Shown piece by piece: positions 16,901-32,968 of a stretch of DNA of 63,987 nucleotides. Below the pieces are notes generated by a model. It saw only the letters and a list, made by a program, of their open reading frames with translations. It was not told the DNA's origin and made no database searches. Origin of the DNA: an uncultured Gemmatimonadota bacterium (lineage in GTDB: Bacteria > GCA-2686955); NCBI GenBank assembly GCA_964490075.1, contig CAZBBK010000030.1, positions 1 to 63,987 of the forward strand, given 5' to 3'. The translations under genes were made by a program, and so were the position numbers. Position 1 is the stretch's first letter; each line of letters begins with the position of its first letter.

Positions 16901-19900
16901 CCGCGCGTAGCATCGCGTAGTCGCCGTCCAGCATGCGGAGGTCGAAGTCGTCGGGGTTCTCGGTCTCCCAGATGAGCCGCCCGCCGCAGCTCCAGGCCAT
17001 GCAGATCTCGCTGGGGGTCTTGCGGACGGTCAGCCGGCGACACCTTCTGCAACGCCAACGGCCGTCGTGCGGGTGGAGGCGGAGCCTCCCGGCATCGACC
17101 TGGTAGACACCCGCGCTGCCGCTCAGCGGCCGGCCCCAGCCGGTGAGCTGGGCGGGGACCAGCAGCCCCGCGCTGGTCAATGTCGACCACAGGTCGTCGA
17201 GAAAACGCCCGATGTCGTTCTTCTCCACGCCCCAGGCTCTCGCTGCATTCCACGTCAGGGTGGGAGCGCGACCGATCCACTGCATCGTGCAGCCGGGGCT
17301 GCTCTCGGCGCGACGGGCCTTCAAAACCCCCTTGGGCAACCCGGAGAAGGCGGAGAAGTAGCCGCGCTGGATCTCCTTGTCGCCGCTGTTCCACTTTTTG
17401 CCGAAGAGCTCGGTCTGCGCGTCATGGAGGATGCGCGTGCGCCGGTGGTGGTCGAGCAGGGCCGCGGCACCCTCTACCAGGTCCGGCGGCTCGACTCCGA
17501 GTGCTGGCGCCCACCGCTTGAAAAAGGGCAACTCGGCGGAGAGCCCGATGTAGTCGACCTTCAGTCGCCCCCACGGCTCGAGGCCGAGACGCTGCTTGAC
17601 GCCCGTGGCCACCTCGAGCAGCACCTGGAGCCGCAAGAAGTAGGCGCGCTCTTCCCGGTGCTTGGTGCTCGCGTCTTCGAAGTGGTGAACTTGCCAGACC
17701 TCGGGGACCAGCGCGCGAGAGAGCTCGCGGTCGGCTTCGAGCTCGGCGTCGACTTTCGCGACGACGTCTCCGATCGAGGCACCCTCGGCCGGCATGTGCT
17801 GGAAGAAGAGCGACCGCAGCCGGAAGCGGCGCGCGTGATCCCTCATCCACCCGGACTGGAAGGCGGCATCTTGGCGGTTGTCGGCGAAGACCAGGAGACG
17901 CCGGCGCTCGGACAGGTGCACCATCGATTGGGCCAGGATGTGCACATCGGACACCGTCACCGCGCGGATGGGACGGGCGGGCTCTCTGTGGCGCCCGTGG
18001 ACTCGCCGCCTCGCCGCCTGGCAGCACACGCAGCTCTGGAGTTGGCCTCCCTTGCCTTCTTTGTGGCGGACGGCGTGGATGGCCGCCAGCGATCCGATCC
18101 GCGCGCAGGCGCCGCAAGCGTCCGAGCCCTCTTCCTGGACTGCTCCGCAGCTCTTGCAGACCCACAGCGGCGCGAGGCGGCGGTGACTGAAAGCGTGCTC
18201 GCTCCCGGCATCTTGCGCCTCGTCGCCAGAGCCCTCCTCGTCCTCCTCTTCGTCCTCATCCTCGCCCGCGACCAGACGATCGACGAGCAGGACTCGCTTG
18301 CCCCGGAGCTCTTCCGCGAGATGCTTCCACACGCGGCGCTCGCCCACGATATCGCCGCCCTGCGGCGCGCCCGCGAAGAGCGCGAACTCCTCCAGAAAGC
18401 CCTCGTAGTAGTGCTGGCCGCAGGTGGTGCACGACAGGATGGGGAAGCGGAAAAACTCGTCTCCAAGCTCGGCTTCGGCATCTTCGCCGGCGAGCCACAA
18501 GCGGGCCGACGAGTCGGGTCCGGTTAGCGTGACGACGGCGCCGCCCACGCCGCGCACGAAGCTGTGGATCACCGGCCGCAGGAGGGGCTGATGACCGCCG
18601 CGCGCGCAGACCGCCCCGAGCGCCAACCAGGTGAGGATCTCGGCTTGCGTCACCGTGCGCCCCAGCGGCTCATCGAGAAGCTCACCGATCGTGGCGAGCG
18701 GCCGGGGTCGCTCGAGAAGGGCGGCGAGGCGGTAGACGAGCTCGCTGCACGCGAGCTGCCGGAAGAGCGGGCGCTGCCAGTCCTGCTCCGGTAGCTCCCG
18801 CCCTCCGAGTGACGTCATTACCTTCGAGATCGCTCGGGCGGCCGCCCCTTCGTCCTCGAGGTCCACTGCGACCAGCAGCTCCTCGATCAATCGGCCGGGG
18901 TCCGGCGGCGGAGTCGAGCTCCAGGCGTCGAGCCGGTTGAAGCGGATTTCGTCGTAGATCTCCCCGACTAGCTCGACCGTGTCGCCGTCGACGCCGAAGA
19001 AGCGCCGGGCGAAGGTCTTGCCGGCCTCCCGGCCCTCTTCGGGGTCGGCCATGGTGGCGGAGGTCGCGATGCAGATCGTCTGCTCGGGCGTGCGCCCACA
19101 GAAGGTGCGCAGGCGCCGGATCAAACACGCGGTCTCCGCGCCCTGAGCCCCGCGGAAGGTGTGGGCCTCGTCGAAGACCAGAAAATCGAGCGGCGCGTTG
19201 TCGAATAGGTGGACGTCCTTGCCGCGCGTGAGCAGCAGCTCGAGCATCTTCGTGTTGGTGAGCAGAATCCGCGGCTGCCCGCCGGGCTTGCGCATCGCCT
19301 CACGGCTCGCGCGTTCCTCGAAGGGGCGGAGGGTCGTTGCCTGGCCGGATTCCTTCAATTGTGCGAGGCGTTCGCGGTAGTCGGCCTGGGAGCTGCCCGG
19401 CGGGAGCCTCTCGTCGGCGACCTGGGACTCCTTCTCGTGCGTCTTGCCGACGTACATGCCGAAGGGGATCCCGCTGCCGGCCAGCAAGCCGCGGAGTCGC
19501 TCTAGCTGATCCTCGGCGAGGGCGTTCATCGGGTAGACCAGCACCGCCACGATGCCCGGGTCGGCGCCATCGTCCTTCAGCTCCAGGCAGCGACTGATGA
19601 TGGGGTAGAGGAAGGCTTCGGTCTTACCGGAACCGGTGCCGGTCGCGACCAGGGTGTGCTGGCCCTGGTGGATGGCGCGAATCGCTCGTGCCTGGTGGGC
19701 GCGGAGCTCGGGGTACGGAACCAGCGCCTCCATATGCGGGTGGAAGATGCCCTCGGCGATCAGGTCCTTGATGGCGTCGCCCTGCTTGAAAGGCTGGGAC
19801 AGGCTGATGAAAGGGCCCTGGCGCAGCGGCGTGTCGCGGGACGCGTCGAGCGAGAGCAGCTCCCGCATCCGCGCGTAGAGATCCACGTCGGCCAGCGGAT

Positions 19901-19970
19901 AGGTCGTGAGCTGGTAGCGCAGGAAGTCATCGACGACGGACTCGGTGAAGGCGACGGGGTTCAGGGCCAT
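13935..19970 (-). CDS. Large DEAD/DEAH-box helicase with Zn-finger motifs, DUF1998, PD-(D/E)xK/Vsr-like nuclease and C-terminal S24 peptidase-like domain (defence helicase)
   Basis: TGTGSGKTE, YPMNALAEDQ, DEAH, TSAT, TPTLELGVDIG, QRAGRAGRR, LYDPMPGGSG..C...C...C..C (DUF1998), IPDFFY..IYLDG..H, VVGESM..YTVK. Confidence 0.9.
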   Translation of the reverse strand: MALNPVAFTESVVDDFLRYQLTTYPLADVDLYARMRELLSLDASRDTPLRQGPFISLSQPFKQGDAIKDLIAEGIFHPHMEALVPYPELRAHQARAIRAIHQGQHTLVATGTGSGKTEAFLYPIISRCLELKDDGADPGIVAVLVYPMNALAEDQLERLRGLLAGSGIPFGMYVGKTHEKESQVADERLPPGSSQADYRERLAQLKESGQATTLRPFEERASREAMRKPGGQPRILLTNTKMLELLLTRGKDVHLFDNAPLDFLVFDEAHTFRGAQGAETACLIRRLRTFCGRTPEQTICIATSATMADPEEGREAGKTFARRFFGVDGDTVELVGEIYDEIRFNRLDAWSSTPPPDPGRLIEELLVAVDLEDEGAAARAISKVMTSLGGRELPEQDWQRPLFRQLACSELVYRLAALLERPRPLATIGELLDEPLGRTVTQAEILTWLALGAVCARGGHQPLLRPVIHSFVRGVGGAVVTLTGPDSSARLWLAGEDAEAELGDEFFRFPILSCTTCGQHYYEGFLEEFALFAGAPQGGDIVGERRVWKHLAEELRGKRVLLVDRLVAGEDEDEEEDEEGSGDEAQDAGSEHAFSHRRLAPLWVCKSCGAVQEEGSDACGACARIGSLAAIHAVRHKEGKGGQLQSCVCCQAARRRVHGRHREPARPIRAVTVSDVHILAQSMVHLSERRRLLVFADNRQDAAFQSGWMRDHARRFRLRSLFFQHMPAEGASIGDVVAKVDAELEADRELSRALVPEVWQVHHFEDASTKHREERAYFLRLQVLLEVATGVKQRLGLEPWGRLKVDYIGLSAELPFFKRWAPALGVEPPDLVEGAAALLDHHRRTRILHDAQTELFGKKWNSGDKEIQRGYFSAFSGLPKGVLKARRAESSPGCTMQWIGRAPTLTWNAARAWGVEKNDIGRFLDDLWSTLTSAGLLVPAQLTGWGRPLSGSAGVYQVDAGRLRLHPHDGRWRCRRCRRLTVRKTPSEICMAWSCGGRLIWETENPDDFDLRMLDGDYAMLRAAEHSAQVPARARETIENQFKGDKEHLNTLVCTPTLELGVDIGALDAVLMRNVPPSAANYWQRAGRAGRRHRMAVDITYAQARSFDQAYFREPLKLLEGLVEPPRFNMKNTLMVRKHVHASVLTRLNSIAREVGEAEGSRLKDVLVRTFPPTLRTYLFTSAGDVLPHPLDVAELGLMIQEYRPSVMAVVLPIFQSAWPDEDVEAVEAARLEETVDGMGDELQAVIKRFKKRLDWALGQLEQLRKVEAKKGSLDAEDAAHRRRCERLVRRFKGDSRRQRGDAQGGVSDSETMGALAREGFLPGYGLESGSIVGTAEPPRMTQGLGDFELPRAPSIALREYVPGNAVYACGFRFVPRHFQLTPDDTLRFRVDSEHQAVHEVGAVESGGALGQQELRAVPICDVVMPSQSHISDQEEFRFQMPVAVYGTERGRHKGGTAYTYGGLMLQLRRAVQVRLVNVGPRSEVEQQRIGYPVCLACGYTSSPYTSEEGLQRFQESHAERCGHAVEPTGFYADVEVDALGFHDLDDRTRAFSTVEALRMGAARVLDMELEDLQILLVSRTGEGEFDLLLYDPMPGGSGLLQQMCARWDEVVAAAIAIPKGCASACERSCIDCLQTYRNRYYHEYLDRHQAQEILESAGRVLEETHQIPEKQPSTATTTGQDQTYIEGRFKELLLSAGLSAPICQKTIHLGEGYGLTIPDFFYEGDPEEDDEPGTCIYLDGMSRHIHGNPEQKEKDTFLRNRLRELYYNVVEVPSTLLGDQPAMVAAIARIAKYVLGKAAGRRLKADMSWFERMPASAERAAEAAEPEGAVVLPFQRLDRRSIKPFENCVPLYDLKVAAGRFSGEQVVDEVGGHGDSVNIDDLDWVSFAGRTRPARDIFVAQVVGESMNRRVPNGAWCVWRLDPTGTKQGRVVLARHRDIQDAEHGGTYTVKVYESEKVETEDGELRHARITLKPASTDPSFAPIVFDEEDLEDGALRFVAELVEVLGPPA

Positions 19971-19977
19971 GGGGTCA
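19944..19977. repeat. 5' end of the helicase gene; a degenerate second copy lies at 21083-21117
   Basis: ggtgaaggcgacggggttca-gggccatgg versus ggtgaaggcgacgggtttca-caacgccatgg. Confidence 0.75.
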
Positions 19978-20993
19978 GCTTTCGTCGCGGGTCTGGCGGC
20001 CGAGCTCGGTCAGGCGGTAGCGCTGCTTGCTGCTGCGGGGCTTGTCGGGGATGGTCATTTCGACAAAGCTGCCATCCAGAGCCGGCTGCAGGTAGCCCTC
20101 CAAAGAAGTTCGCGCGACCTGCCAGGCCGAGTTGGGATTGGATCTGTGCGCGACTCATCTCGCCCTCGACAACCCTCGAGAGATCGAGCACTTGTCCTGT
20201 GACTTGTCCTGTGACTTGTCCTGTGACCTGCCGGGTGACCTGCCCTGCCACCTGATCCCGCACCGCCCGCTCGTGCACCGGCAGTCGAATCAGGAAGTAG
20301 CTGCGGTCTTCGTCGGTGTCGAATTCGGGCGGTGGCGATCCGTTCTGATCCATGGCTCGCAGGATCTTGCGGGAAGTTCCAGAGACGCTCGGCCTCGGGG
20401 CGATCGGGGTGCTTGATCACCGTCTGCTTCAGGTAGTTGCGCTCGATATAGGCGATCGCGTCGCGGGTGATTTGGGCGAGTGGTCCAACGAACTCCTTCT
20501 CTTCGAAACGATCGCCGCCCGCGTCTTCGTCCTCGCCTTTGGCCTCCACCGTGCTGGTGTAACGCCGAATGTAGTAGCGACGCTCGCTGCGCTTGGCGGT
20601 AACCGACTTGAGCACCTTGTAGGGTCGGTGGGTGCCCCCGTGCGCCCAAACGACAATGATGTTGCGGTTCTCGAAGCGTTCGACGCTCACGTTGGGAAAG
20701 TACGGCGGCTGGATCTTGGCGCAGTGCGCCAGCAGCTCTTGTTGGATGCGGTCGATCTGCTCCCTGCGTACACCAATCGGGGGAAACACCGGCTGGCCAT
20801 CGGCGTCGCAATCCTGGCCGATAATAATGTCGCCACCTCCGAGATTGGCGAAGTCGTTGGCGAAAGCGCAGATGGTGCGCAGGGTGGGGTCTGGGTTCCA
20901 GCCGGCTTTGTATTCGATTCGTTCGCTTTCGACGAAACGTTGGGGCCGCTGGTCGCGTTGGTTGATGGGGAGTGGGGTGGTGGGTTGCGTCAT
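19975..20993 (-). pseudogene. Decayed AlbA_2/Schlafen-domain ATP-binding protein with Fic-like C-terminal wHTH
   Basis: ESERIEYKAGW..ICAFANDF..GGG.IIIG; internal deletions; frame switch to NGSPPPEFDTDEDRSYFLIRLPVH and QVTG repeats; second switch to YLQPALDGSFVEMTIPDKPRSSKQRYRLT, stop at 19975-19977. Confidence 0.85.
20190..20255. repeat. 12-bp tandem repeat (acttgtcctgtg x3 plus degenerate units) encoding a QVTG linker
   Basis: Directly visible; lies inside the AlbA_2 pseudogene. Confidence 0.85.
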
Positions 20994-21082
20994 GGCGATC
21001 TCAGGCAACCCATCCTCACGTATCCTCGCGGCCATCGATACCGTTTGTACGCAAGGTAGAATGCCCTTTCTACGCAGTCTGT

Positions 21083-21117
21083 GGTGAAGGCGACGGGTTT
21101 CACAACGCCATGGTTCA
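21083..21117. repeat. Relic copy of the helicase gene start (ATG GCG TT GTG AAA CCC GTC GCC TTC ACC on the minus strand)
   Basis: 19/20 identity to 19944-19963 plus shared gccatgg; ATG lies 3 nt after the RNA ligase stop. Confidence 0.75.
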
Positions 21118-21807
21118 ACGTTTGGTTGAGGGGGAGAGGCGATTGCGGCGCAGCGGGCCACGGCTCCAGTGCGTGTCGATAGCCTGCACGAACTCCGCGC
21201 GCACCAGCTTGGCGCGCTGCACCAGCCAATCGCCCGAGTCGACTCGAACGTAGATTCCCTCCATGGGGGCCGACCCCACGCGCGACGTGGTCATTCGCGC
21301 CACGAGTTCCTGGTGCGAGAAACGCCCCCGGCCCAGCTCAGGCACTCGTTGGAGGCCGAGCCCGTCGAGCAGCTCGTTCCGGCGGGGTGTAGACCAGAAT
21401 CGGCCCTGGACACGATCAAGGAGGTCGAAGCCCAGGAACCAGCCGGGCAGTGCGTCGTAAGGGACGCTGTGAACCGCGGCGCACCACTCGCCGAAGAGGA
21501 TGAGGTCGGGCCACAGCGCATCTAACAGCGCCTCGCGCCTGGGGGCGAGCCAGGGCCAGAGCGATCGAAACTGTGGATGACACACATCGGGGGAGAGCCA
21601 GCTCCCCCGGTTTTGGGCGAGCAGCTCGCCGTCGTCGTTGGCGGAGAGGCCGAGGCTGGCGCCGTCGATCTTCTCTTCGAGGACGAGCTCGTTTCCCAGA
21701 AGTGTTGCCACCTCGTCGGCGCACAGGACCTTGTCCGCCCGCGGTGATCCTGCGCCGAGCCAGGCAAGGTGCGGGGTGTGGGGGAAGCGGTGGAAGGGCG
21801 GTGTCAT
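21115..21807 (-). CDS. RNA ligase family protein (Rnl2-like nucleotidyltransferase fold)
   Basis: FPHTPHL, motif I EEKIDG, III LFGEW, IIIa FLGFDL, IV MEGIYVR, V RAKLVR; ATGA overlap with the PIN gene. Confidence 0.9.
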   Translation of the reverse strand: MTPPFHRFPHTPHLAWLGAGSPRADKVLCADEVATLLGNELVLEEKIDGASLGLSANDDGELLAQNRGSWLSPDVCHPQFRSLWPWLAPRREALLDALWPDLILFGEWCAAVHSVPYDALPGWFLGFDLLDRVQGRFWSTPRRNELLDGLGLQRVPELGRGRFSHQELVARMTTSRVGSAPMEGIYVRVDSGDWLVQRAKLVRAEFVQAIDTHWSRGPLRRNRLSPSTKR

Positions 21808-22304
21808 GGGTTGTTCTTGGAGCTGAACTTGTCTCGCAGCCAATCCTCGAGCAGATGCTCCACGCGCGCTCCGGCGGCGGCGAGCTGCGCCTCGATCTCC
21901 AACCAGTCCGTGTCGGTCGCGTTGACCAACGTGGTCCCATTGACGTCTTCGAGCAACGCCGCCAGCAGCTTGCGATCAGATGGTTCGAAATCGGCGAACG
22001 CCTCTGGCACCACTCCGTACCCGTTGGCGTCGTAAGTCACCGGCACAAAGCGTGCGGTGGCCATTTTCTGGTTGATGAGCTGCATCCCGTAGTCCTGATC
22101 GGAGAGCTTGTTGCGGTACTCCCCATAGATCTTGAAGTCCGTATCCCAGACGATCTGTCGGGTGTTGTTGGCACGGAACGCTACCAACCACTCGAAGACC
22201 GTGTTCTGCAATGCCGGGGGAAGGCCTGAATCGTCGAAGGGAGAGTCAGGATCCGCCGCGCTCGCCACGAGCAGCACGTTGGTGTCGATCACGTGGTCAG
22301 CCAC
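21804..22304 (-). CDS. PIN-domain-like protein
   Basis: VIDTNVLLVA, IYGEY, SDRKLLA, NATDTDW acidic pattern; overlaps the ATPase stop. Confidence 0.7.
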   Translation of the reverse strand: MADHVIDTNVLLVASAADPDSPFDDSGLPPALQNTVFEWLVAFRANNTRQIVWDTDFKIYGEYRNKLSDQDYGMQLINQKMATARFVPVTYDANGYGVVPEAFADFEPSDRKLLAALLEDVNGTTLVNATDTDWLEIEAQLAAAGARVEHLLEDWLRDKFSSKNNP

Positions 22305-23646
22305 GGTCGCACTCCGCGGCCCGCGCCCGGAGGCGCGTGATCATGCTGCGCATCTGGCGCTCGGTCTCGCCGATAGCGTCGCCGAAGAACTTGTCGGGCC
22401 AGTTGGCGATTCGCCCGAACTCGTCGGTCTCGAGCCGATGCAGCGAGGCCGCGCCATCCTCGTCGTGGTCCGCGAAGTACATGCGACAGTCGTTCGGTGA
22501 GATCTTCTCGTCCGCGATCAAAAACTGAAGACGCCTGAAGACGTGCTCGGAGTGGGTCTCCACCAGGAACTGCACCTGTCGTTCCCGCGCGACCTCCACC
22601 ATCAGCTCAGCCAAGCCGACTTGCGCTCGCGGATGGAGATGGATTTCTGGCTGCTCCGCGATGATCACGCTTCCCCGGGGAACGAAATGGGCGAGCACGA
22701 TCATCGGCAACACTTGCGAGATCCCGAATCCGACATCGACGATATTGGCGCGCTGACCCCGTGTCGTGAGGACGACCTCGAAGTAGCGCGAAGGCCCCTG
22801 ACGCTCCAACTCCAGGCTATCGGCAACACCGAGTCTTGTGAGCCACTCGGATACCCGCTCGACCAGCCAGCCGCGGCCACCTTCCTGGCCGACTTTCTGC
22901 TTTTTGCGGCTATTGGCGCTGGCGAGCAGGGCGTGTACGGCGCGTTGGCCCCGTGGTCCGAGATCTCCCGGCGTCTGTCGTCCCCACAAATAGCTACGTT
23001 CGGGGGACTCGCGCAGAGGGCCCAAGTAGGCAACTCTGTCGAGGATGTGCCGTCTGGTAGCAAGGGCCAGGTCCTGAGCTCGGCTGCCGGCCTCACCCAG
23101 CTCCGCCAACGCATCCGCGGGCAGGGTCAAGGACCGCTCCGGTTGAAAGGTGCGCCGCGCGATCGGGCGACCGCCGACGATCGTCGGTTCGTAGCCGGGG
23201 GCTTCCAGGCGGTATCCGCCCTTGGACTGACGCCTCGCGGCGTAGGTCCTGTCTCCCTCCGCGTACTTCAGCTCCCGCAAGGCGGGGACCGTTCTGACGT
23301 GCCCGAAGTGCGCCTCATAGGTAAAGCTCGATGGTCCGCTGTGCTCGACGCCCAGGTCATCCAGAGACAGGCCGAACCCCATGTCCAACGACACGTCGTG
23401 GCCGTGAATCACGTCCTCGTAGCTGCCGAGGTCGAGTAGATCTCCCTTCTGGCCGCCCAGGTTGAGGTCCAGGCTGCGATCCGTGGATCCGAGGGTCTGC
23501 CCGAGCAGCAGTGGCACCTGTAGGAGGCTGGTTTTTCCTGAAGAGTTGGGGCCGAGGAGCAGCGTCACGGGCGCCAGCTCGACCCCGGGCTCCCACAGCT
23601 GCTCGTTCCAAGCCTTGAAGTTCTTGATGCGCAGTCGGGTGAACAT
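22297..23646 (-). CDS. ABC-type (AAA_15/AAA_21) ATPase with C-terminal DUF3696
   Basis: RLRIKNFKAW, Walker A GPNSSGKT, VGFGISQVLP, IIAEQPEIHLHP, VETHSEH, GRIANWPDKFFG. Confidence 0.92.
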   Translation of the reverse strand: MFTRLRIKNFKAWNEQLWEPGVELAPVTLLLGPNSSGKTSLLQVPLLLGQTLGSTDRSLDLNLGGQKGDLLDLGSYEDVIHGHDVSLDMGFGLSLDDLGVEHSGPSSFTYEAHFGHVRTVPALRELKYAEGDRTYAARRQSKGGYRLEAPGYEPTIVGGRPIARRTFQPERSLTLPADALAELGEAGSRAQDLALATRRHILDRVAYLGPLRESPERSYLWGRQTPGDLGPRGQRAVHALLASANSRKKQKVGQEGGRGWLVERVSEWLTRLGVADSLELERQGPSRYFEVVLTTRGQRANIVDVGFGISQVLPMIVLAHFVPRGSVIIAEQPEIHLHPRAQVGLAELMVEVARERQVQFLVETHSEHVFRRLQFLIADEKISPNDCRMYFADHDEDGAASLHRLETDEFGRIANWPDKFFGDAIGETERQMRSMITRLRARAAECDRG

Positions 23647-23649
23647 GGA

Positions 23650-23790
23650 TCAGCCTCCGTCTCGTGATGATACGCGGCCGAGCGCCCGCGCATGCCGCTC
23701 GCACTCCGCCCAGCTCTCCTCGGGTGTCTGCTCGAGCTGCCAGTCCAAGAAGCGCGGCTCCAGCACGCTTGCCACGGGTTGAAGGTTCAT
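23650..23790 (-). pseudogene. 46-aa mini-ORF duplicating the methyltransferase C-terminus (MNLQPVASVLEPRFLDWQLEQTPEESWAECERHARALGRVSSRDGG)
   Basis: Manual translation; ATG overlaps the YhcG stop; ends 3 nt before the ATPase ATG and carries its GGAGG RBS. Confidence 0.8.
23681..23782. repeat. 102-bp direct repeat copy A (copy B at 24891-24992), flanking yhcG
   Basis: Ungapped alignment at offset 1210; 11 mismatches in 102 nt by hand count. Confidence 0.95.
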
Positions 23791-24839
23791 GGGCGCGTTC
23801 CGCCGTCGGCATCCGGCAATGGGACCCGGTCTCTTGCGCGATCGATCGCGGCGTGCAATCTGGCTCGCAGGAGTTCGCGAGGAGGGAGCGCGGTGAGGTA
23901 TTCGGCGACGTGGATACCGGCCTCCTCCAACTCGAGGAGCTCGATCATTTCGTGCCCTTTGTCGGCGCAGAGGATGAGCCCGAGCGGGGTCGCTTCTCCC
24001 GATCGCCGTTCGTGCTTGTCGAGCCAGCGCAGGTAGAGCTCGACCTGTCCCTTGTCCGCCGCTCTGAACCGGTCGAGCTTGAGCTCGATTGCGATCAGGC
24101 GACGCAGCCCGCGGTGGAAAAAGAGCAGATCGATGTAGAAGTCATCGCCGTCGACAACGATGCGTTTCTGGCGAGCTACGAAGCTGAAATCGGTCCCGAG
24201 CTCCAGCACGAACGCCTCGAGCTCACGGAGGATGGCGTGCTCGAGGTCCCGCTCGCTGTAGGTGTCATGCAGCTCGAGGAAGTCCAGGAGGTATGGATCT
24301 CGAAACACCAACGCCGGCGTGAGTTGGTCCTCATCTCGCAACTGATCGAGCTCTTGGCGAATGAGGGCATCGGGCTTCTTGGACAGCGCCGTACGCTGGA
24401 AGAGCACTCCGGCAATCTTCGCGCGCAGCGTGCGCACGCTCCAGCCTTCGACGCGGCACATCTCGGCGTAGAATTCGCGGGCCAGGGGCTCTTTGACGAG
24501 CAGCAACTCGACGAAGTGGCTCCATCCCAATCGTCTCGACAGCGTCGAGACAATCTGCTCATCCGGAAAGACCTCGGCGAGCTGGATCATCCGGTGCAGA
24601 TTCGGTCGACTGAAACCACGACCATAAGCGTCGGTCAACTCATCCGACACTGTCGAGACAATCCGCCGGCCGTAGGGCGCGCGCCCTTCATGCAGTAGCT
24701 CGCTGTGGATGCGTCGTCCGATCTTCCAGTAGAGCAGCACGAGCTCCTGATTGACGGCTACCGCGGTCCGGTGGCGGGCGCTCTCGATCAGGGCACGCAG
24801 CTCGGTCAAGAGGCCGGCGGGCACGGGCAGCTCGGACAT
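23787..24839 (-). CDS. yhcG: YhcG/DUF1016 PDDEXK nuclease-domain protein
   Basis: AVNQELVLLYWKIG, GRGFS..NL, LGWSHF, WSVRTL, FRDPYLLDFL, FVARQKRI, FYIDLLF, IAIELK, GQVELYL. Confidence 0.95.
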   Translation of the reverse strand: MSELPVPAGLLTELRALIESARHRTAVAVNQELVLLYWKIGRRIHSELLHEGRAPYGRRIVSTVSDELTDAYGRGFSRPNLHRMIQLAEVFPDEQIVSTLSRRLGWSHFVELLLVKEPLAREFYAEMCRVEGWSVRTLRAKIAGVLFQRTALSKKPDALIRQELDQLRDEDQLTPALVFRDPYLLDFLELHDTYSERDLEHAILRELEAFVLELGTDFSFVARQKRIVVDGDDFYIDLLFFHRGLRRLIAIELKLDRFRAADKGQVELYLRWLDKHERRSGEATPLGLILCADKGHEMIELLELEEAGIHVAEYLTALPPRELLRARLHAAIDRARDRVPLPDADGGTRP

Positions 24840-27800
24840 CAGCGCTCATCCTCCGTCTTCATCTCGGGCACGTCCCCTCGATCGTGCGCGAGCACCCGAG
24901 CATGCCGCTCACACTCCGCCCAGCTCTCCTCGGGCGTCTGCTCTAGCTGCCAATCCAGAAAGCGCGGCCCCAGCACGCTGGCCACGGGCTGAGGCGCACG
25001 AGCCCGCTCGTCGTGCCCGAGGTCGTGGTCGGCGAGTCGCAGGGTCTCCGGCAGCAGCCAGCCCTCGCCGTCGTTTTGCTCGGTGAAGGCGCTGATGCCG
25101 GCGTCGCGGTCGCCGCTTGCGGCGTCGATCTGTTGCTGCAAGGCGTCGAAGGCTACCAGGGAGAGCACGGTGTGGCGCAGCTCGGGGGGTTTGTCTTTGT
25201 CTACGCGCCAGAAGCCCTTTGGGTCGAGGGTGCGGGTGAAGTTGCGGTCCGAGAGCGTTGCGACCGGGTGGTCGCAGTCGCGCAGGATCCAGGCGAAGTC
25301 GGGGCGGTCGAGGCCGTAGAGGGTGGCGACGATGGCGTCGAGGATGGAGCGTATGCGGAGGCGTTCGTGGGGGGTCAGGGCCCAGGCAGTAGCCGGGGTA
25401 GACGTCCGACAAGATGGTGCGAATACTGGGTGAACCGAGGTAAGACGCTTGGCCAATCGGCCGAGGCCCCCCAGACATGTATTCAGCCCTGGTAGCGCCG
25501 TCTCCTCGATGATGAAGTAATTCAAGGTCAACCCGCCCAGGCGCACACGTAGTTGCGCATCGTACGCGAACGAGTTGAGCACAGCACTCAGCGATGGCCC
25601 GTCCAGTTCCGTCGTCTGAAGCAACGGCGTCTTGTTGCCCGCGGGAAATGGAGGAACCACAGCAGCGATCATCGTCCGCTGGTTTGTCGCGGACGAGACA
25701 TCCATGAAGAGCACCTTCGTGAGGGCGTCGGTGGCTCGGTGCTCGGCGTAGTCTGCCTCGCTCATCAGGAACTGCGGCTCAAGCACCTTCGCATCCCACG
25801 GAATGTCCCGCCAAACAGCCGTCCGCCCCTTCCCACTCACCCACCCCTTTTCGCTGAAGTCGAACTGCCCGATCATCCGTCCCTCGAAGAGCGGCAGCGC
25901 CACATCCCCCCCCGGCCCAATCCACCGCCCATACTCATCCGGCCGATACCCCTTCGCCTCCCACTTCTCCCGCGGCGGGAAGAGCTTGGAGTCGTTGGTC
26001 ATGTCGAACTCGCGGGCGTACTTGATCCCCCAACCGTCGGGGCTCTCGTCGCCGAGCAGCACGCCGTTGTCGTAGATCTTCTGGAGCACCGCGAGGTCGC
26101 GCTCCGAACGGATCTCGAGGATGGACAGCGACCTGGGGCTGAACGCCTTGACCCGCTCCGCCGGGTACTCCAGCACGTACTCTGCGCCGTCGGCCCGCCC
26201 CCAGTCCTCCAAGTCGTGGCGCATAAAGGCCGCCCCGATGCCCTCGGTCTGGCCACCCTTCTGCGCGATCAAGATGCAGAATTTGAAGCTGCGATGGATG
26301 TCGAAGATCTTGTCGCGGTTCTCGAAGCCAAACAGCCACCGCCACCGGCTCTGCTCCAGGAGCAGACGGCGCAGATCCCCGGTACCCTTGTCGGTGTAGA
26401 TCCCGCTGGGCACGATGAGACCCAGCTCGCCGCCTTCGCGAAGCAGCGCGTGGCCCGCCTCGACGAACATCTTGTAGGTGTTCAGGTCGGCCGAGCCCTG
26501 GTGGCGGAAGGGGTGGCCCGGGTCTGCGAAACCCCGGTGCGCACGACGCTGCTTTCGCCAGTGCTCGTGGAGTGGCCCGCCCGCCTTCCCGCGTGCGAGC
26601 GAGACGTCGCCGCCGCCGTGACCGGCGATCTTGCCGTCGCCGAAGGGCTCACCGGCGTAGCGGACGAAGTTCCCCCGCGCCTTGTAGTCGGCGACGTAGC
26701 CCAACCACCGCTCCTCCTCTGCTGGCTGGTCTTCGAAGATCGCCCGCTGCCGACGAAGCGCCTCCTGCTTGCCGTAGCTTCGGTAGAGGGGGTCGAGGTT
26801 GGAGAAGTACTCCTTGCTGCTGGGCTTCTGGATCTCCCACGGTGGGTTGCCGACCACGGCGTCGAAGCCGGCGCCGCGCTTGTGGAAGACGTCAGGGTAC
26901 TCGAGCTCCCAATGGAAGAAGCGCCGGGCCGGCGTGCCGACCATCTCCTCGACGATCGCGACCGCTTCCGCGCTGGGCGCGTGCAGGGTCCGCGGGTCCG
27001 GGGCCGCGTCGAGTTTGTCGAGGGGCCAGAACCACAGCGCCGTCCAGACGTCGAACGCCGCCCTGAGGCGGTCGATGGCTGGGTGGTGCTCGATCTGCTG
27101 TCGGTAGAGCCGCGCCCGCCGGTCCGGACGGTTGGCGGGGATCCGGCGCAGCTTGGCGAAGAGGTCACGCACGGTCTCCAGGTCTCGACGCATCGCGCCG
27201 TCGTCGTCCTCGTAAGCGATCGGAATCTGCCCGGAAACGGCCTCTTGGAGAATCTGGTTCTGGCCTGCGATGACCGTTTTCCTCTTAGCGCCCAGCGCCT
27301 TGTGCCATCGCCCGGACTCATGATGCACCCCCTTGTACTTGTAGTCGGGGCTGTCGCGCAGCCACGCCAGGAGCGGGTACTCGCGGAAGCGGTCGACCCA
27401 GCAGCCCACGAGCGAGTTGCCGGCCTTGAGCTTGTGGTCGAGGAAGGTAAACGGCAGCTTGTCGTCGAGTGTCTCCACCCAGAGCGCGACCTTGGCGAGC
27501 TCGACCGCCAGTGGGTTGATGTCCACGCCGTAGAGGCAGTGCTCTACGACGTAGCGTTTGATGCAGTCCTCGAACTCCTCGTCGAAGCGCGGATCGTCGG
27601 CCGCGAAGGGGAAGACCCGATCGCTCTCCGCCAGCGTGGCGATCTCCACCCGCGTGCGCGTGCCCTCGCCGTGCACGCGCCCGTGGGTGTAGGCGCCTTC
27701 GATGACGGCCTGAGTCAGCACGCGTAGGGCCGCCACCAAGAAGGACGCCGATCCCATGGCGGGGTCGACGACCTTGAGTGTGAGAATCTCCTCGGGAGTG

Positions 27801-29644
27801 CGCGCCTCTCGGCCGTTTTCGGTTTCGGCGTGCGTCAGCGGCTGCAGCGTGCGTCGCACCGTCGGCATGGTGAGCTGGGGCCGCGTGTAGAACGTGCCCG
27901 AGCCCTTGCGGGTTCCGCCCCAGCGCACCAGGAAGAGCTCGCCGGGCAGCTTCAGGTCACTGATCAGGGCATCGGCGGCGCGTTGCTGCTGCTCGAGCTG
28001 GTCCTCGCCCCGGCTCTTATTGACGAGCTTGCCCACCTTGACCGCGCGCAACGCCCACACCATCGCGCGCTGCAAAGCAACCTCACGCAAGTCATCGACC
28101 GCGCTGTCGGGCTCCTTTTGCTCCCGGTCCTGGTCGTCCAGTGTCGGGTCGGTCACCGAGTCCGCAGTTTCGGTGTCATCTCTCTCCGCGGCATTCTCCC
28201 CGACGTCCTCGTTGTCGGGTCCGTCTTCCTCCCCGAGAACCAGCCCCTTGGTGTCCTTGGCCTTTTCGACGAGGGCCTTGATGGCCTTGTCGTCCATCGC
28301 TTCGAGCCGAGAGATGGGGAGCGCCGGCTGATCGCCCAGGTTCAGGAAGAGGACGGCATCGCCCGTGGCCTTCTGCAGCTCGTAGTCGAGCAGACCCTCG
28401 TAGAGGATCCCGATGTACTCGCTCGACAGATCGGTGAAATTCACCGGCTCGGTCACGCGACGCCACGCGCGACCGTCGCGCATCCTAACCGTGGTGCGGG
28501 TAAGCATGACGAGGATTTGGTGGATGACCTCGTCATCCGGCGGCGACTGCGTGGACTCGATTAGGTGCAGCGCCCGCCCGACGGGGTCGCCGTCTTTGCG
28601 GCCCGGACGGAACAGATCACCACCGTAGGCGGGCAGCGTGATCGCAGGGTGCGGCGAGCCTTCGTAGAGCAGAGAGAAGAGCGCCAAGAGCCGCGACCAG
28701 CTGCTGTGCCGGTTGCGTCGGCGGAGGCGGCTCACGCGATCGAGGGACTCGAGCAGCCCCGTGATGCCGTATGCGTGGTGGTAGACCGGGTTCTCCTGCG
28801 GCAGCATGCCTCGCGCCTCGGCGAAGAGCGTGACCACCAGGCGCATGACGAAGTGGCACGCCGCCACGTAGACCGTCTGGGCGTCGAGATCGTCCCACGC
28901 CTCCTCGATCACGGGTCGACGCGAGACGAGGAGCGCTTCCACCGCCTTGCGAACCCGCTCGCCCAGCTCGGATGAGAGTCGAGCCTGCCCCTGGCGAGTC
29001 TCGGCGATCGCCGCCAGCAGAGGGGATCGTGTGGCGCCCTCCGCGGGCGTCAGAACCTGCCTGCCCAGGAGGCGCGAGAAGCCTACGACGGAGTCTGACA
29101 GCCGCCCGCCGCTGAAGAACTCGCTCGTATCCCACTCGACCCAGGCTTGGGTGTCCGCGTCGGCGTAGATGAGCCGCCACTGCCGGCCGTTGGTGACCAA
29201 GCCGAGCGGTGCCCGATGTCGGCGCAGGTACTCGGTGATCTGGGCAACAGGACGCCTGCCCTTGTGCAGTCCCACCTGGCGGACCTTGGTGGTGAAGACG
29301 TGCAGCGACGCGCCCCCCTCGCCGTTCCACACCCGCCTCGGCTTCCATCGGGTGCCGTCGAGCAAGGTCTCTGCGTACTCGGGACCGACGTGGGATCCCT
29401 TCGACCAGCCTGATTTGAGTCCGGTCACCTGCTCGAGCAGGAGATCCATGAGCGTGGTGAGCGCATCACCCTTGGCTGCACCTTCATCGGGCAAGGCGAT
29501 GACCGCCGACCGAAGGGTTTCGGGCAGCTTCCACGGTAGCGGCTGGGTCTCGGGCAGCGCATCCAGGTGGGTGCGGTCGATCAGCTGCCCGCCGTGGCGC
29601 AGGCTGAGCCACCAGTCCATCAGCTCGTCGGGACGCTCCGTCAT
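24839..29644 (-). CDS. Large N6-adenine DNA methyltransferase (type IIG/Eco57I-like, DrmMI-like)
   Basis: YEGLL, RKGSGTFYT, motif I VVDPAMGSASF, YGVDINPLAVELAKVALW, FHWELEYP, motif IV VVGNPPW, FENR..IF.IH; ATGA overlap with the SNF2 gene. Confidence 0.92.
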   Translation of the reverse strand: MTERPDELMDWWLSLRHGGQLIDRTHLDALPETQPLPWKLPETLRSAVIALPDEGAAKGDALTTLMDLLLEQVTGLKSGWSKGSHVGPEYAETLLDGTRWKPRRVWNGEGGASLHVFTTKVRQVGLHKGRRPVAQITEYLRRHRAPLGLVTNGRQWRLIYADADTQAWVEWDTSEFFSGGRLSDSVVGFSRLLGRQVLTPAEGATRSPLLAAIAETRQGQARLSSELGERVRKAVEALLVSRRPVIEEAWDDLDAQTVYVAACHFVMRLVVTLFAEARGMLPQENPVYHHAYGITGLLESLDRVSRLRRRNRHSSWSRLLALFSLLYEGSPHPAITLPAYGGDLFRPGRKDGDPVGRALHLIESTQSPPDDEVIHQILVMLTRTTVRMRDGRAWRRVTEPVNFTDLSSEYIGILYEGLLDYELQKATGDAVLFLNLGDQPALPISRLEAMDDKAIKALVEKAKDTKGLVLGEEDGPDNEDVGENAAERDDTETADSVTDPTLDDQDREQKEPDSAVDDLREVALQRAMVWALRAVKVGKLVNKSRGEDQLEQQQRAADALISDLKLPGELFLVRWGGTRKGSGTFYTRPQLTMPTVRRTLQPLTHAETENGREARTPEEILTLKVVDPAMGSASFLVAALRVLTQAVIEGAYTHGRVHGEGTRTRVEIATLAESDRVFPFAADDPRFDEEFEDCIKRYVVEHCLYGVDINPLAVELAKVALWVETLDDKLPFTFLDHKLKAGNSLVGCWVDRFREYPLLAWLRDSPDYKYKGVHHESGRWHKALGAKRKTVIAGQNQILQEAVSGQIPIAYEDDDGAMRRDLETVRDLFAKLRRIPANRPDRRARLYRQQIEHHPAIDRLRAAFDVWTALWFWPLDKLDAAPDPRTLHAPSAEAVAIVEEMVGTPARRFFHWELEYPDVFHKRGAGFDAVVGNPPWEIQKPSSKEYFSNLDPLYRSYGKQEALRRQRAIFEDQPAEEERWLGYVADYKARGNFVRYAGEPFGDGKIAGHGGGDVSLARGKAGGPLHEHWRKQRRAHRGFADPGHPFRHQGSADLNTYKMFVEAGHALLREGGELGLIVPSGIYTDKGTGDLRRLLLEQSRWRWLFGFENRDKIFDIHRSFKFCILIAQKGGQTEGIGAAFMRHDLEDWGRADGAEYVLEYPAERVKAFSPRSLSILEIRSERDLAVLQKIYDNGVLLGDESPDGWGIKYAREFDMTNDSKLFPPREKWEAKGYRPDEYGRWIGPGGDVALPLFEGRMIGQFDFSEKGWVSGKGRTAVWRDIPWDAKVLEPQFLMSEADYAEHRATDALTKVLFMDVSSATNQRTMIAAVVPPFPAGNKTPLLQTTELDGPSLSAVLNSFAYDAQLRVRLGGLTLNYFIIEETALPGLNTCLGGLGRLAKRLTSVHPVFAPSCRTSTPATAWALTPHERLRIRSILDAIVATLYGLDRPDFAWILRDCDHPVATLSDRNFTRTLDPKGFWRVDKDKPPELRHTVLSLVAFDALQQQIDAASGDRDAGISAFTEQNDGEGWLLPETLRLADHDLGHDERARAPQPVASVLGPRFLDWQLEQTPEESWAECERHARVLAHDRGDVPEMKTEDER
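24891..24992. repeat. 102-bp direct repeat copy B (3' end of the methyltransferase gene)
   Basis: Matches 23681-23782. Confidence 0.95.
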
Positions 29645-32907: not shown

Positions 32908-32968
32908 GGCGCCACTCCCACGACCGATTGGGTTTGGTGGCGGCCTCCGCGGACTCCGGTCCGGGGGC

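What the first reader, a model, noticed from the sequence alone, without database searches (positions are those of the whole stretch)
21115..23646. ABC-ATPase(DUF3696) + PIN + RNA ligase trio: candidate undescribed RNA cut-and-repair defence module
Seen: three translationally coupled genes (8-nt and ATGA overlaps) with intact Walker A/B and H-loop, a PIN-like acidic pattern and all five ligase motifs. Known: ABC-ATPase plus nuclease pairs are a recurrent anti-phage design (PARIS AriA/AriB, Septu PtuA/PtuB, Gabija GajA, PrrC/RloC), and anticodon nucleases are countered by RNA ligases. Inference: an ATPase sensor gates a PIN RNase while the ligase restores or modifies the cut RNA. Nested in a methyltransferase-based system, it could back up restriction the way PrrC does with EcoprrI. 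I do not recognise this trio as a named system.
Basis: partly seen in the sequence, partly recalled or inferred. Interest (0 to 1): 0.8.

Follow-up and report, generated by a model that had tools for sequence, protein, structure and literature searches.

The report
ATPase–PIN nuclease–RNA ligase defence cassette
Three overlapping genes encode a sensor-type ATPase, an RNA-cutting PIN enzyme and an RNA-joining ligase; they travel together in many bacteria, the first two resemble a tested anti-phage pair (HEC-03), and the ligase probably reseals the nuclease's own cuts, which nobody appears to have tested.

Summary
Three minus-strand genes at 21115-23646 overlap by 8 nt and by ATGA. They encode an ABC ATPase with a DUF3696 tail, a 166-aa protein that folds as a VapC-like PIN with an intact D-E-D-D set, and a 230-aa RNA ligase that is only a nucleotidyltransferase domain. 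One correction: Walker B here reads E-Q, not D-E.

The linkage is strong in both directions. The ligase follows the ATPase-PIN pair in 73 of 80 genome loci. Starting from the ligase, the PIN lies upstream in 60 of 64 metagenome loci with room.

The trio is not undescribed. The ATPase-PIN pair matches the PADLOC candidate HEC-03, a two-gene system reported to defend E. coli in a 2024 preprint, and is related to Menshen NsnB/NsnC. A PIN review cites a 2016 comparative-genomics paper that proposed PIN/ATPase/ligase operons in which the ligase neutralises the nuclease. Two earlier scan reports on this trio were marked "in print".

Here the cassette sits inside a DISARM-like helicase-methylase island, an embedding shared by 7 of 80 related loci.

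Best reading: the ATPase gates the PIN RNase and the ligase reseals its 5'-P/3'-OH cuts. Only the parts and the linkage are shown; the mechanism is inferred. This is a new member of a known kind.

The parts
22297..23646 (-). ABC ATPase (OLD-ABC/AAA_15-AAA_21 type) with a C-terminal DUF3696 helix; HEC-03/NsnB-like sensor-transducer. Walker B reads E-Q.
   Evidence: Pfam AAA_15, AAA_21, DUF3696. PADLOC HEC-03B 6.3e-94, NsnB 1e-56, PDC-M55A 2.3e-55. Motif conservation.
21804..22304 (-). Standalone VapC-like PIN nuclease, 166 aa, with a conserved D7-E62-D110-D131 set; predicted effector.
   Evidence: No Pfam hit. PADLOC HEC-03A 2.6e-9. 132 homologues. Conservation. AF2 pLDDT 96.1. VapC21 5sv2_A Z 9.7, rmsd 3.1, 120 aligned.
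21115..21807 (-). Minimal ATP-dependent RNA ligase (nucleotidyltransferase domain only, 230 aa), closest in fold to the nick-sealing ligases NgrRnl and T4 Rnl2.
   Evidence: PF09414 2.6e-29. Invariant motif residues. AF2 pLDDT 93.5. Foldseek 6vt4 1.9e-8, 2hvr_A 1.6e-7, 2vug_A 2.4e-7.
23787..24839 (-). Context: DUF1016/YhcG PD-(D/E)xK nuclease, a second embedded candidate (PADLOC PDC-S02).
   Evidence: Pfam YhcG_C 2.8e-44, DUF1016_N 9.4e-44. PDC-S02 1.9e-123.
24839..29644 (-). Context: large Eco57I-type N6-adenine methyltransferase (DrmMI / type IIG-like) of the host island.
   Evidence: Pfam Eco57I 9.9e-21. PADLOC REase_MTase_IIG E=0, DrmMI 4.5e-126.
29641..33072 (-). Context: SNF2-family helicase (DrmD-like) of the host island.
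   Evidence: Pfam SNF2-rel_dom, Helicase_C. PADLOC DrmD 4.3e-187.
20055..21035 (-). Context: Schlafen/AlbA_2-domain gene directly downstream of the ligase; its 3' part looks frameshifted and carries a 12-nt tandem repeat.
   Evidence: Pfam SLFN_AlbA_2 6.8e-12. Tandem repeat at 20190-20227.
13935..19970 (-). Context: 2011-aa DEAD/DEAH helicase with an MZB (DUF1998) zinc domain (DrmA+DrmB / DruE-like) closing the island.
   Evidence: Pfam DEAD 9.8e-24, Helicase_C, MZB 9.2e-9. PADLOC DruE 6.2e-104, DrmA 6.3e-15.

Best explanation
This is a three-gene anti-phage cassette of the HEC-03 / Menshen-NsnB family, embedded as a second-line module in a DISARM-like helicase-methyltransferase island. The ABC ATPase probably holds the PIN nuclease through its C-terminal DUF3696 helix and keeps it quiet until an infection cue arrives. 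The released or activated PIN then cuts RNA (target unknown; tRNA or rRNA by analogy with VapC) and stops translation. Metal-dependent PIN cuts leave 5'-phosphate and 3'-OH ends, which an ATP-dependent ligase can seal with no end-healing enzymes. The co-translated minimal RNA ligase therefore reseals those cuts. That would buffer leaky nuclease activity in uninfected cells and/or let the cell recover after the threat passes, making the response a reversible arrest and not suicide. SHOWN: the gene anatomy, the folds, the conserved catalytic residues, the conserved three-gene linkage and the embedding. INFERRED: defence function for this clade, the RNA target, ATPase gating through DUF3696, and the direction of the ligase's action.
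For: Family assignment: ATPase vs HEC-03B 6.3e-94 and NsnB 1e-56; PIN vs HEC-03A 2.6e-9. [quoted passage not shown] PIN: AF2 pLDDT 96.1; the top 40 of the 50 rows shown by VIA are PIN domains, best VapC21 Z 9.7, rmsd 3.1, 120 residues aligned; D7/E62/D110/D131 conserved. Ligase: all catalytic motif residues invariant in 36 sequences; fold matches the nick-sealing RNA ligases NgrRnl, T4 Rnl2 and Pab1020. It is the most conserved of the three proteins (mean pairwise identity 0.54, against 0.49 for the ATPase and 0.47 for the PIN, 62 loci). Linkage: ATPase upstream in 80 of 80 and ligase directly downstream in 73 of 80 PIN-seeded genome loci, mostly with -8/-4 overlaps, across 8 phylum labels. 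Reciprocal, ligase-seeded metagenome loci: PIN upstream in 60 of 64 with room, ATPase in 47 of 50 with room. Pairwise distances co-vary (PIN-ligase r 0.84, 0 of 999 permutations as high). Ligase-less loci are nested among ligase-bearing ones on the ATPase tree (at least 3 changes for 6 rows) and carry no replacement gene or remnant. The same ligase family follows two other ATPase + small-protein pairs: a PIN clade closer to HEC-03A (7e-27) and PDC-M07B (3.4e-48). DUF3696-to-PIN contact was predicted by AF3 in 23 of 24 Menshen models (paper passage). The ligase-neutralises-nuclease idea is attributed to Burroughs & Aravind 2016 (passage in PMC5499597).
Against: There is no experiment on any ligase-bearing member. 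The PIN end chemistry and its fit to the ligase are recalled biochemistry, not tested here. The window's PIN matches the HEC-03A model only weakly and partially (residues 67-151), so a defence phenotype is extrapolated to a sister clade. 7 of 80 loci lack the ligase and the published HEC-03 worked as a two-gene system, so the ligase is not essential for defence. The ligase has no substrate-binding accessory domain (230 aa against 320-380 aa for solved relatives), so its substrate is open. The window's ATPase has Q at the usual catalytic-glutamate position, so an ATP-hydrolysis-driven cycle is uncertain. No fused PIN-ligase or PIN-ATPase protein was found (weak evidence).
Confidence: 0.5

Rival explanations
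1. Cut-and-rejoin is offensive, not reparative. PIN and ligase act together to make damage irreversible. For example, they could excise nucleotides and religate a shortened tRNA/rRNA, or circularise or 5'-adenylylate fragments, so that phage RNA-repair enzymes cannot restore the target.
For: The ligase is a bare nucleotidyltransferase domain that may need a partner for substrate binding. PIN and ligase distances co-vary most tightly of the three pairs (r 0.84). JGI names relatives 'ATP-dependent RNA circularization protein'. RloC-type wobble excision is a precedent for repair-proof damage (paper listing and abstract).
Against: No evidence of a PIN-ligase complex. 7 of 80 cassettes do without the ligase and two-gene HEC-03 defends alone. 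The literature's stated reading is neutralisation.
Confidence: 0.12
2. The ligase is a general RNA-repair gene that protects host RNA from foreign RNases (phage or competitor toxins). It merely hitch-hikes in defence islands and is functionally independent of the ATPase-PIN pair.
For: 62 of 65 viral-contig relatives of the ligase are lone genes. These include one at 52% identity set among small phage-type ORFs (L163). The ligase also occurs next to other partners (L102, L112, L091).
Against: Strict adjacency, same order and start/stop overlaps in 73 of 80 loci. Reciprocal linkage 60 of 64. Co-variation. The other partners found are again an ABC ATPase with a PIN-like small protein, or a nuclease.
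Confidence: 0.13
3. The module works on DNA together with the DISARM-like island. A structure-specific PIN-like nuclease nicks or cuts invading DNA or R-loops, and the ligase seals nicks in self DNA or RNA:DNA hybrids.
For: The cassette sits between a DrmMI-like methyltransferase and a DrmA/B-like helicase here and in 7 of 80 loci. NCBI labels one relative 'DNA ligase'. Weaker Foldseek matches include DNA ligases.
Against: The best structural matches of the PIN are VapC RNase toxins and those of the ligase are RNA ligases. Most cassettes (at least 65 of 80) lie outside such islands within 6 kb. HEC-03 works alone.
Confidence: 0.1
4. It is an addiction (toxin-antitoxin-like) module that stabilises the mobile island and is not an anti-phage system. 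PIN is the toxin, and the ligase and/or the ATPase is the antidote.
For: VapC-like fold. Toxicity of HEC-03 on induction. Presence on conjugative plasmids beside Hok/Gef and AbiE genes.
Against: HEC-03 reduced plaquing by orders of magnitude. There is no small labile antitoxin gene. The cassette also occurs in chromosomal housekeeping contexts.
Confidence: 0.08

Closest known systems
HEC-03 (Hma-embedded candidate 03; Payne et al., bioRxiv 10.1101/2024.01.29.577857; PADLOC-DB v2 models PDLC04147/PDLC04148)
   Same: An ABC ATPase and a small VapC-like PIN protein, adjacent and co-oriented, embedded in a helicase-methylase defence island. The ATPase matches at 6.3e-94.
   Different: Published and tested as a two-gene system; 'ligase' occurs 0 times in the main text. 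The window's PIN matches only weakly (2.6e-9, partial), whereas a sister PIN clade that is also followed by the ligase matches at 7e-27. Here a third, translationally coupled RNA ligase is present. The A/B letters are swapped between the preprint text (A = ATPase) and the PADLOC models (A = the 159-position PIN model).
Menshen (NsnABC; Li et al., NAR 2025, PMC12065111)
   Same: NsnB-type ABC ATPase with a DUF3696 tail, a GxG signature and a non-DE Walker B. A PIN-fold partner protein predicted to dock on DUF3696.
   Different: No NsnA (ParB-DUF262) gene in the island. The PIN here is standalone, keeps D-E-D-D (Menshen's are inactive 'inPIN') and has no fused C-terminal nuclease. A ligase is present instead.
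PIN / ATPase / ATP-grasp(RNA) ligase / HNH conflict system of Burroughs & Aravind 2016 (NAR 44:8525), as cited in Matelska et al. 2017 (PMC5499597)
   Same: The same three functions in one operon, and the same proposed logic: the RNA ligase neutralises the nuclease (passage). PIN_3 is the top marginal Pfam hit for 9 of 32 members of this PIN family.
   Different: No HNH gene in the window; an HNH_2 gene followed the ligase in 1 metagenome locus, L112. I could not read the 2016 paper, so identity of the families is not verified.
PrrC / RloC anticodon nucleases with T4 Pnk/Rnl1 repair
   Same: An ABC-ATPase-regulated RNase nested in a restriction-type locus, with RNA ligation as the antidote to the cut (abstract of PMC2610378).
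   Different: There the ATPase and nuclease are one polypeptide, the host locus is type I R-M, the cuts need end-healing, and the ligase belongs to the phage. Here the ligase is encoded by the defence cassette itself.
PARIS (AriA/AriB) and P2 OLD
   Same: An OLD-ABC-type ATPase sensor controlling a separate or fused nuclease that cleaves tRNA (abstracts). AriA models hit the ATPase at 5.4e-20.
   Different: The effector there is a Toprim nuclease, not a PIN. There is no ligase.

Membership tests
HEC-03 (PADLOC) | ABC ATPase matching the HEC-03 ATPase model | tested here: met
   PDLC04148 6.3e-94, 313.6 bits, best of 110 PADLOC hits.
HEC-03 (PADLOC) | Small PIN protein matching the HEC-03 PIN model | tested here: inconclusive
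   PDLC04147 2.6e-9 but only residues 67-151. Sister-clade PINs reach 7e-27 over the full length. The window's clade is a distant relative.
HEC-03 (PADLOC) | The two genes adjacent and co-oriented | tested here: met
   8-nt overlap. ATPase upstream of the PIN in 80 of 80 loci.
HEC-03 (PADLOC) | Anti-phage phenotype requiring both genes | not testable with these tools
   Reported for the tested homologue only.
Menshen (NsnABC) | NsnA sensor with ParB-DUF262 + ParBDB | tested here: not met
   None of the 8 island proteins has a ParB/DUF262 Pfam hit.
Menshen (NsnABC) | NsnB: ABC ATPase + DUF3696 | tested here: met
   DUF3696 1.8e-10. NsnB model 1e-56 over residues 1-423.
Menshen (NsnABC) | NsnC: inactive PIN fused to a C-terminal nuclease effector | tested here: not met
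   166-aa single-domain PIN with conserved D-E-D-D. No longer fused relatives found.
PIN domain, VapC-like | PIN fold | tested here: met
   pLDDT 96.1. Top 40 of the 50 rows shown are PIN domains; 5sv2_A Z 9.7, rmsd 3.1, 120 aligned. Foldseek alone was weak, best E 3e-3.
PIN domain, VapC-like | Four conserved acidic residues (D-E-D-D) | tested here: met
   D7 at 90% or more; E62, D110 and D131 invariant in 32 sequences.
VapBC type II toxin-antitoxin | Small upstream VapB antitoxin gene | tested here: not met
   The upstream overlapping gene is the 449-aa ATPase.
ATP-dependent RNA ligase (PF09414; Rnl2/Rnl3/Rnl5-like) | Family HMM and motif I lysine KxDG | tested here: met
   PF09414 2.6e-29. 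K46, D48 and G49 invariant.
ATP-dependent RNA ligase (PF09414; Rnl2/Rnl3/Rnl5-like) | Motifs III, IIIa, IV and V | tested here: met
   E107, F127-D128, E183-G184 and R198/K200 invariant. Motif numbering is recalled. R replaces K at the end of IV and the start of V.
ATP-dependent RNA ligase (PF09414; Rnl2/Rnl3/Rnl5-like) | Accessory substrate-binding domain (Rnl2 C-domain, Rnl5 N-domain, Rnl3 dimerisation and C domains) | tested here: not met
   230 aa, one domain in the model. Solved relatives are 317-381 aa, and the match is to their NTase domain.
Burroughs & Aravind 2016 PIN-ATPase-ligase-HNH system | PIN of the PIN_3/COG1569 group | tested here: inconclusive
   PIN_3 is the top marginal hit for 9 of 32 members, best E 0.0048. 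The window protein itself has no hit.
Burroughs & Aravind 2016 PIN-ATPase-ligase-HNH system | HNH nuclease in the operon | tested here: not met
   No HNH among the island proteins. Seen once next to a related ligase, L112.
PrrC/RloC anticodon nuclease | ABC ATPase and nuclease in one polypeptide, inside a type I hsd locus | tested here: not met
   Separate genes. The host island is SNF2 + Eco57I-type MTase + DEAD/MZB helicase.
DISARM class 1 (context island) | DrmD SNF2 helicase + DrmMI methyltransferase | tested here: met
   DrmD 4.3e-187, DrmMI 4.5e-126.
DISARM class 1 (context island) | DrmA helicase + DrmB (DUF1998) + DrmC (PLD) | tested here: inconclusive
   One 2011-aa protein carries DEAD + MZB/DUF1998, but its best PADLOC hit is DruE 6.2e-104 and DrmA only 6.3e-15. 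I did not search for a PLD gene.

The most novel reading that the evidence does not exclude
PIN and ligase form a programmed RNA cut-and-rejoin machine. The bare ligase domain borrows the PIN (or the ATPase-PIN complex) as its RNA-binding module. The pair would then either give the first host-encoded, self-reversing RNase immunity (arrest, then enzymatic restoration of the same RNA), or rewrite a target RNA into a form that phage repair enzymes cannot fix. Either way, ligation would be an intrinsic step of a bacterial immune effector and not a counter-defence.
Probability: 0.3. Interest if true: 0.7.

Novelty: new member of a known kind. Interest (0 to 1): 0.4.

Why it matters
RNA ligases are classically the phage's answer to host anticodon nucleases (T4 Pnk/Rnl1 against PrrC). 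Here the defence cassette itself carries the ligase, in roughly nine of ten members of a widely transferred family. If the ligase reseals the PIN's cuts, HEC-03-type immunity would be a tunable, reversible translation arrest and not cell suicide. It would also mean that the published two-gene tests, which were toxic on induction, left out the system's own safety device. The cassette offers a compact, testable model: three small genes, chemically matched ends, and natural ligase-less variants as controls. In this window it also illustrates layered defence: three candidate modules (DUF1016 nuclease, the trio, an AlbA_2 gene) sit inside one DISARM-like island.

Tried and rejected
1. Complex prediction on PIN (A1) + ligase (A2) gave 'no answer' (score 0.00, controls not run). 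This is no evidence either way.

2. Search for fused forms with the PIN as query and 'longer' lengths: 4631 candidates, none at E<=0.001. This is weak evidence against fusions.

3. phmmer of the ligase against PDB sequences: 0 hits at E<=1. Only the fold search found relatives.

4. Foldseek of the PIN model against PDB: no hit at E<=0.001, although the top weak rows were PIN proteins. The VIA wide search settled the fold.

5. The genome search within the window's own phylum: only 5 genomes are held and only G000 has the PIN, so it says nothing about linkage.

6. NCBIfam: nothing for the PIN or the ligase, and only sub-threshold ATPase hits.

7. tblastn for degraded ligase remnants in the 7 ligase-less loci: best E 0.009-0.2, at scattered positions. 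Rejected.

8. Promoter/terminator scan of 20800-24000: counts as in shuffles, nothing usable.

9. Literature. Burroughs & Aravind 2016 and Krishnan et al. 2020 are not held. Full-text searches found no experimental study of a ligase-bearing ATPase-PIN system. Passages read in PMC12839542, PMC10853773, PMC11090510, PMC12707154 and PMC9252829 held nothing on the trio.

10. Supplements are closed. Table S2 and the figure supplements of the HEC-03 preprint could show whether the tested homologue had a ligase next to it.

11. My first adjacency count in the metagenome loci under-counted PINs, because of a divergent PIN clade and a flawed coordinate test. One search replaces it.


Full report
**What is there.**
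The region 21115-23646 holds three minus-strand genes.
- A 449-aa ATPase at 22297-23646.
- A 166-aa protein at 21804-22304, with a GTG start.
- A 230-aa ligase at 21115-21807, with an ATG start.

Pfam gives AAA_15, AAA_21 and DUF3696 for the first protein, nothing for the second, and RNA_ligase PF09414 (2.6e-29) for the third. NCBIfam adds nothing above its cut-offs.

**The ATPase.**
Its best PADLOC matches are HEC-03B (6.3e-94), NsnB of Menshen (1e-56) and PDC-M55A (2.3e-55). AriA, GajA and others follow far behind.

I aligned 73 sequences: the window plus the 72 of 80 related loci whose ATPase ORF is at least 400 aa. The 8 shorter ORFs were left out.
- Walker A (G32, N34, S35, G37, K38) and the H-loop (E363, H365, S366, E367) are invariant.
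- Walker B is not canonical. Position 331 is E in 69 of 73. Position 332 is E in 46, Q in 26 and D in 1. The window reads E-Q.
- The ABC signature is a GxG form.

The Menshen paper describes the same kind of deviations for NsnB: EN instead of DE, and GxG instead of SGG (passages). So 'intact Walker B' needs qualifying, and how this ATPase uses ATP is open.

**The middle protein is a PIN.**
It has 132 homologues of about 165 aa, all unnamed. In a 32-sequence alignment E62, D110 and D131 are invariant and D7 is conserved at 90% or more.

AlphaFold2 on that alignment gives pLDDT 96.1 and pTM 0.91. Foldseek against PDB gave only weak rows, though PIN proteins led them. The independent VIA search of 48,161 chains put PIN domains in the top 40 of the 50 rows shown. 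The best is M. tuberculosis VapC21 (5sv2_A, Z 9.7, rmsd 3.1, 120 aligned).

Menshen's NsnC N-domains are described as catalytically dead. This PIN keeps the full acidic set.

**The ligase.**
The catalytic residues are invariant in 36 sequences (motif numbers are recalled):
- E44-E45-K46-x-D48-G49 (motif I)
- E107 (III)
- F127-D128 (IIIa)
- E183-G184 (IV)
- R198 and K200 (V)

The AF2 model (pLDDT 93.5) matches RNA ligases:
- Naegleria NgrRnl (6vt4, 1.9e-8)
- T4 Rnl2 (2hvr_A, 1.6e-7)
- archaeal Pab1020 (2vug_A, 2.4e-7)
- REL1 and the isolated Rnl2 adenylyltransferase domain (1s68)

Sequence search against PDB finds nothing.

The protein is only the nucleotidyltransferase domain. The solved relatives are 317-381 aa with extra substrate-binding domains. 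From memory, the isolated Rnl2 NTase domain is defective in one step of nick sealing. If so, a partner may be needed here. That is inference.

**Is the ligase linked to the pair?**
Yes, in both directions.

Seeding with the PIN alignment in one-genome-per-species contigs gave 115 relatives, of which the best 80 loci were kept. By tblastn the ATPase lies directly upstream in 80 of 80. The ligase lies directly downstream on the same strand in 73 of 80.
- Five of the 73 ligase ORFs are short. In some (L033, L047, L053, L076, L081) the tblastn match runs to the contig end. In L038 it stops inside the locus.
- Junctions are mostly -8 and -4.

The 7 ligase-less loci are L021, L022, L060 and four Sorangium genomes. 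They show no ligase remnant, and the neighbours scanned (L021, L022, L023, L060) are housekeeping-type genes.

On an ATPase tree (73 rows; L022 omitted because its ATPase is partial) the 6 ligase-less rows need at least 3 changes and are nested among ligase-bearing rows. This fits secondary loss. The tree mixes 8 phylum labels, so the cassette moves horizontally.

Seeding the other way, with the ligase alignment in metagenome contigs, gave 549 relatives, of which the best 80 were kept. With HMMs built from the three families, the PIN is directly upstream in 60 of 64 loci that have room for it. The ATPase is upstream in 47 of 50 with room. My earlier counts were too low and are superseded.

Pairwise identities of the three proteins co-vary across 62 loci: PIN-ligase r 0.84 and ATPase-ligase r 0.70, with 0 of 999 permutations as high. 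Shared ancestry alone can produce this, so it shows co-inheritance and nothing more. The ligase is the most conserved of the three (mean identity 0.54).

**A wider pattern.**
Nineteen ligase-seeded loci had no tblastn match to the window's PIN. In 18 of them the gene between ATPase and ligase belongs to a second PIN clade with the same D/E/D/D landmarks. L088 gave only a low-complexity ORF.

Two members of that clade match the PADLOC HEC-03 PIN model far better (7e-27 and 2.5e-26, full length) than the window's clade does (2.6e-9 to 2e-5, with 6e-12 for Sorangium). So relatives closer to the published HEC-03 also carry the ligase in nature.

Other exceptions:
- In L102 the ligase follows a different AAA_21 ATPase and a 174-aa protein that matches PDC-M07B (3.4e-48).
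- In L112 an HNH_2 gene follows the ligase.
- L091 has unknown partners.

In viral contigs only 3 of 65 ligase relatives sit in the trio. The rest are lone genes, including one at 52% identity set among small phage-type ORFs.

On plasmids 32 records hold a relative. In an Aeromonas conjugative plasmid the trio is annotated 'DUF3696 domain-containing protein / hypothetical protein / RNA ligase family protein', beside AbiE and Hok/Gef genes.

**Context in the window.**
The trio lies inside a minus-strand island spanning 13935-33072, in this order:
1. SNF2 helicase (DrmD 4.3e-187)
2. Eco57I-type methyltransferase (DrmMI 4.5e-126; type IIG model E=0)
3. DUF1016/YhcG nuclease (PDC-S02 1.9e-123)
4. 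The trio
5. An AlbA_2/Schlafen-domain gene
6. A 2011-aa DEAD + MZB(DUF1998) helicase (DruE 6.2e-104, DrmA 6.3e-15)

The island's GC (0.62-0.69) is mostly below the stretch just before it (0.71-0.73 at 10-14 kb).

The same MTase upstream and helicase downstream, at 50% identity or more, flank the trio in 7 of 80 loci: L002-L005, L012, L020 and L077. Two more have the helicase only, and six have a distant Eco57I-type MTase. The window's nearest ATPase relatives (L012, L002, L005) are among the embedded ones.

So embedding in this DISARM-like system is recurrent but not obligatory.

**What is known.**
HEC-03 is described as an ABC ATPase with a VapC-like PIN protein found embedded in Hma systems. 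It reduced plaquing in E. coli, needed both genes, and was not induced because of apparent toxicity. The word 'ligase' does not occur in the main text (passages).

Menshen (NsnABC) pairs an NsnB ATPase+DUF3696 with inactive-PIN-plus-nuclease effectors. AF3 models place the PIN-like domain on the DUF3696 tails in 23 of 24 cases (abstract and passages).

The PIN classification of Matelska et al. 2017 states that some PIN_3/COG1569 members lie in operons with an ATP-grasp ligase, an ATPase and an HNH nuclease. [quoted passage not shown] PIN_3 is the top marginal Pfam hit for 9 of 32 members of the present PIN family. I could not obtain the 2016 paper or Krishnan et al. 2020.

Earlier reports of this scan describe the same trio in other genomes. 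Two carry the later mark 'it is in print'.

My full-text searches found no experiment on the ligase's role.

**How it most likely works.**
- Shown: the parts, their catalytic integrity, and their conserved coupling.
- Inferred from relatives: the ATPase docks and restrains the PIN through DUF3696 and releases or activates it on an infection cue. The PIN cuts RNA.
- Inferred from chemistry (recalled): metal-dependent PIN nucleases leave 5'-phosphate and 3'-OH ends, the substrate of ATP-dependent ligases with no kinase or phosphatase step. This would explain why the ligase alone, with no healing enzymes, accompanies the PIN.

I therefore favour a cut-and-reseal design in which the ligase limits self-damage or permits recovery (confidence 0.5). 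Three observations fit this, but none is decisive:
- The reported toxicity of the ligase-free HEC-03 construct.
- The high conservation of the ligase.
- Lone phage-borne relatives of the ligase.

The rivals are an offensive rejoin or editing role, an independent repair gene, DNA-level action together with the island, and a pure addiction module. They are listed with their tests.

**Verdict.**
The claim of an undescribed system is not upheld: the pair is a member (sister clade) of a named, tested family, and the three-gene logic has been proposed in print. What remains open, and testable, is what the ligase does.

Noticed in passing
window 20055-21035 (-), repeat at 20190-20227, ORF 19961-20353 (-): The AlbA_2/Schlafen-domain gene downstream of the ligase seems broken. 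After the AlbA_2 domain the frame runs into low-complexity sequence that contains a perfect 12-nt tandem repeat (3.2 copies). An overlapping ORF in another frame has a weak Fic-like_C hit (E 0.014). This suggests a frameshifted or split gene.
   Followed up: partly
window 13935-14900 (-), C-terminus of the 2011-aa helicase: The DEAD+MZB helicase ends in a region with a sub-threshold Peptidase_S24 (LexA-like) hit (E 0.0023, 18 bits against a cut-off of 23.3). This would be an unusual appendage for a DrmA/DruE-type helicase.
   Followed up: partly
window 23787-24839 (-): A DUF1016/YhcG PD-(D/E)xK nuclease (PADLOC candidate PDC-S02, 1.9e-123) is a second embedded gene, between the methyltransferase and the trio. 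It is absent from the otherwise similar islands L003, L004 and L012, where the MTase ends about 100 nt before the ATPase.
   Followed up: partly
window 22650-22662 (ATPase residues 331-332): The window's ATPase has E-Q where ABC ATPases usually have the Walker B D-E. Across the family the second position is E in 46 and Q in 26 of 73. This is a natural 'EQ' state, which in other ABC ATPases (recalled) blocks hydrolysis.
   Followed up: partly
L163:2992-3702 (viral contig): A lone ligase 52% identical to the cassette's ligase sits in a run of small, overlapping phage-type ORFs on an 85-kb viral contig, with no ATPase or PIN nearby. It could be a phage counter-measure of the same enzyme family.
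   Followed up: partly
L102:2112-4690; L112:2681-4332; L091:1074-3518 (metagenome loci): The same ligase family follows other partners. L102 has a different AAA_21 ATPase plus a PDC-M07B-like 174-aa protein. L112 has an HNH_2 nuclease downstream. L091 has two proteins with no Pfam hit.
   Followed up: partly
window 11954-13912 (+) and 34936-36858 (-): By eye, the ORFs flanking the island on both sides look like sulfatase-family proteins with similar motifs. The 19-kb island may therefore be inserted between two paralogous genes. No search was run on them.
   Followed up: no
PADLOC models PDLC04147/PDLC04148 versus the preprint text: The letters are swapped. In PADLOC-DB 'HEC-03A' is the 159-position PIN model and 'HEC-03B' the 458-position ATPase model. 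The preprint text calls the ATPase HEC-03A and the PIN protein HEC-03B.
   Followed up: yes
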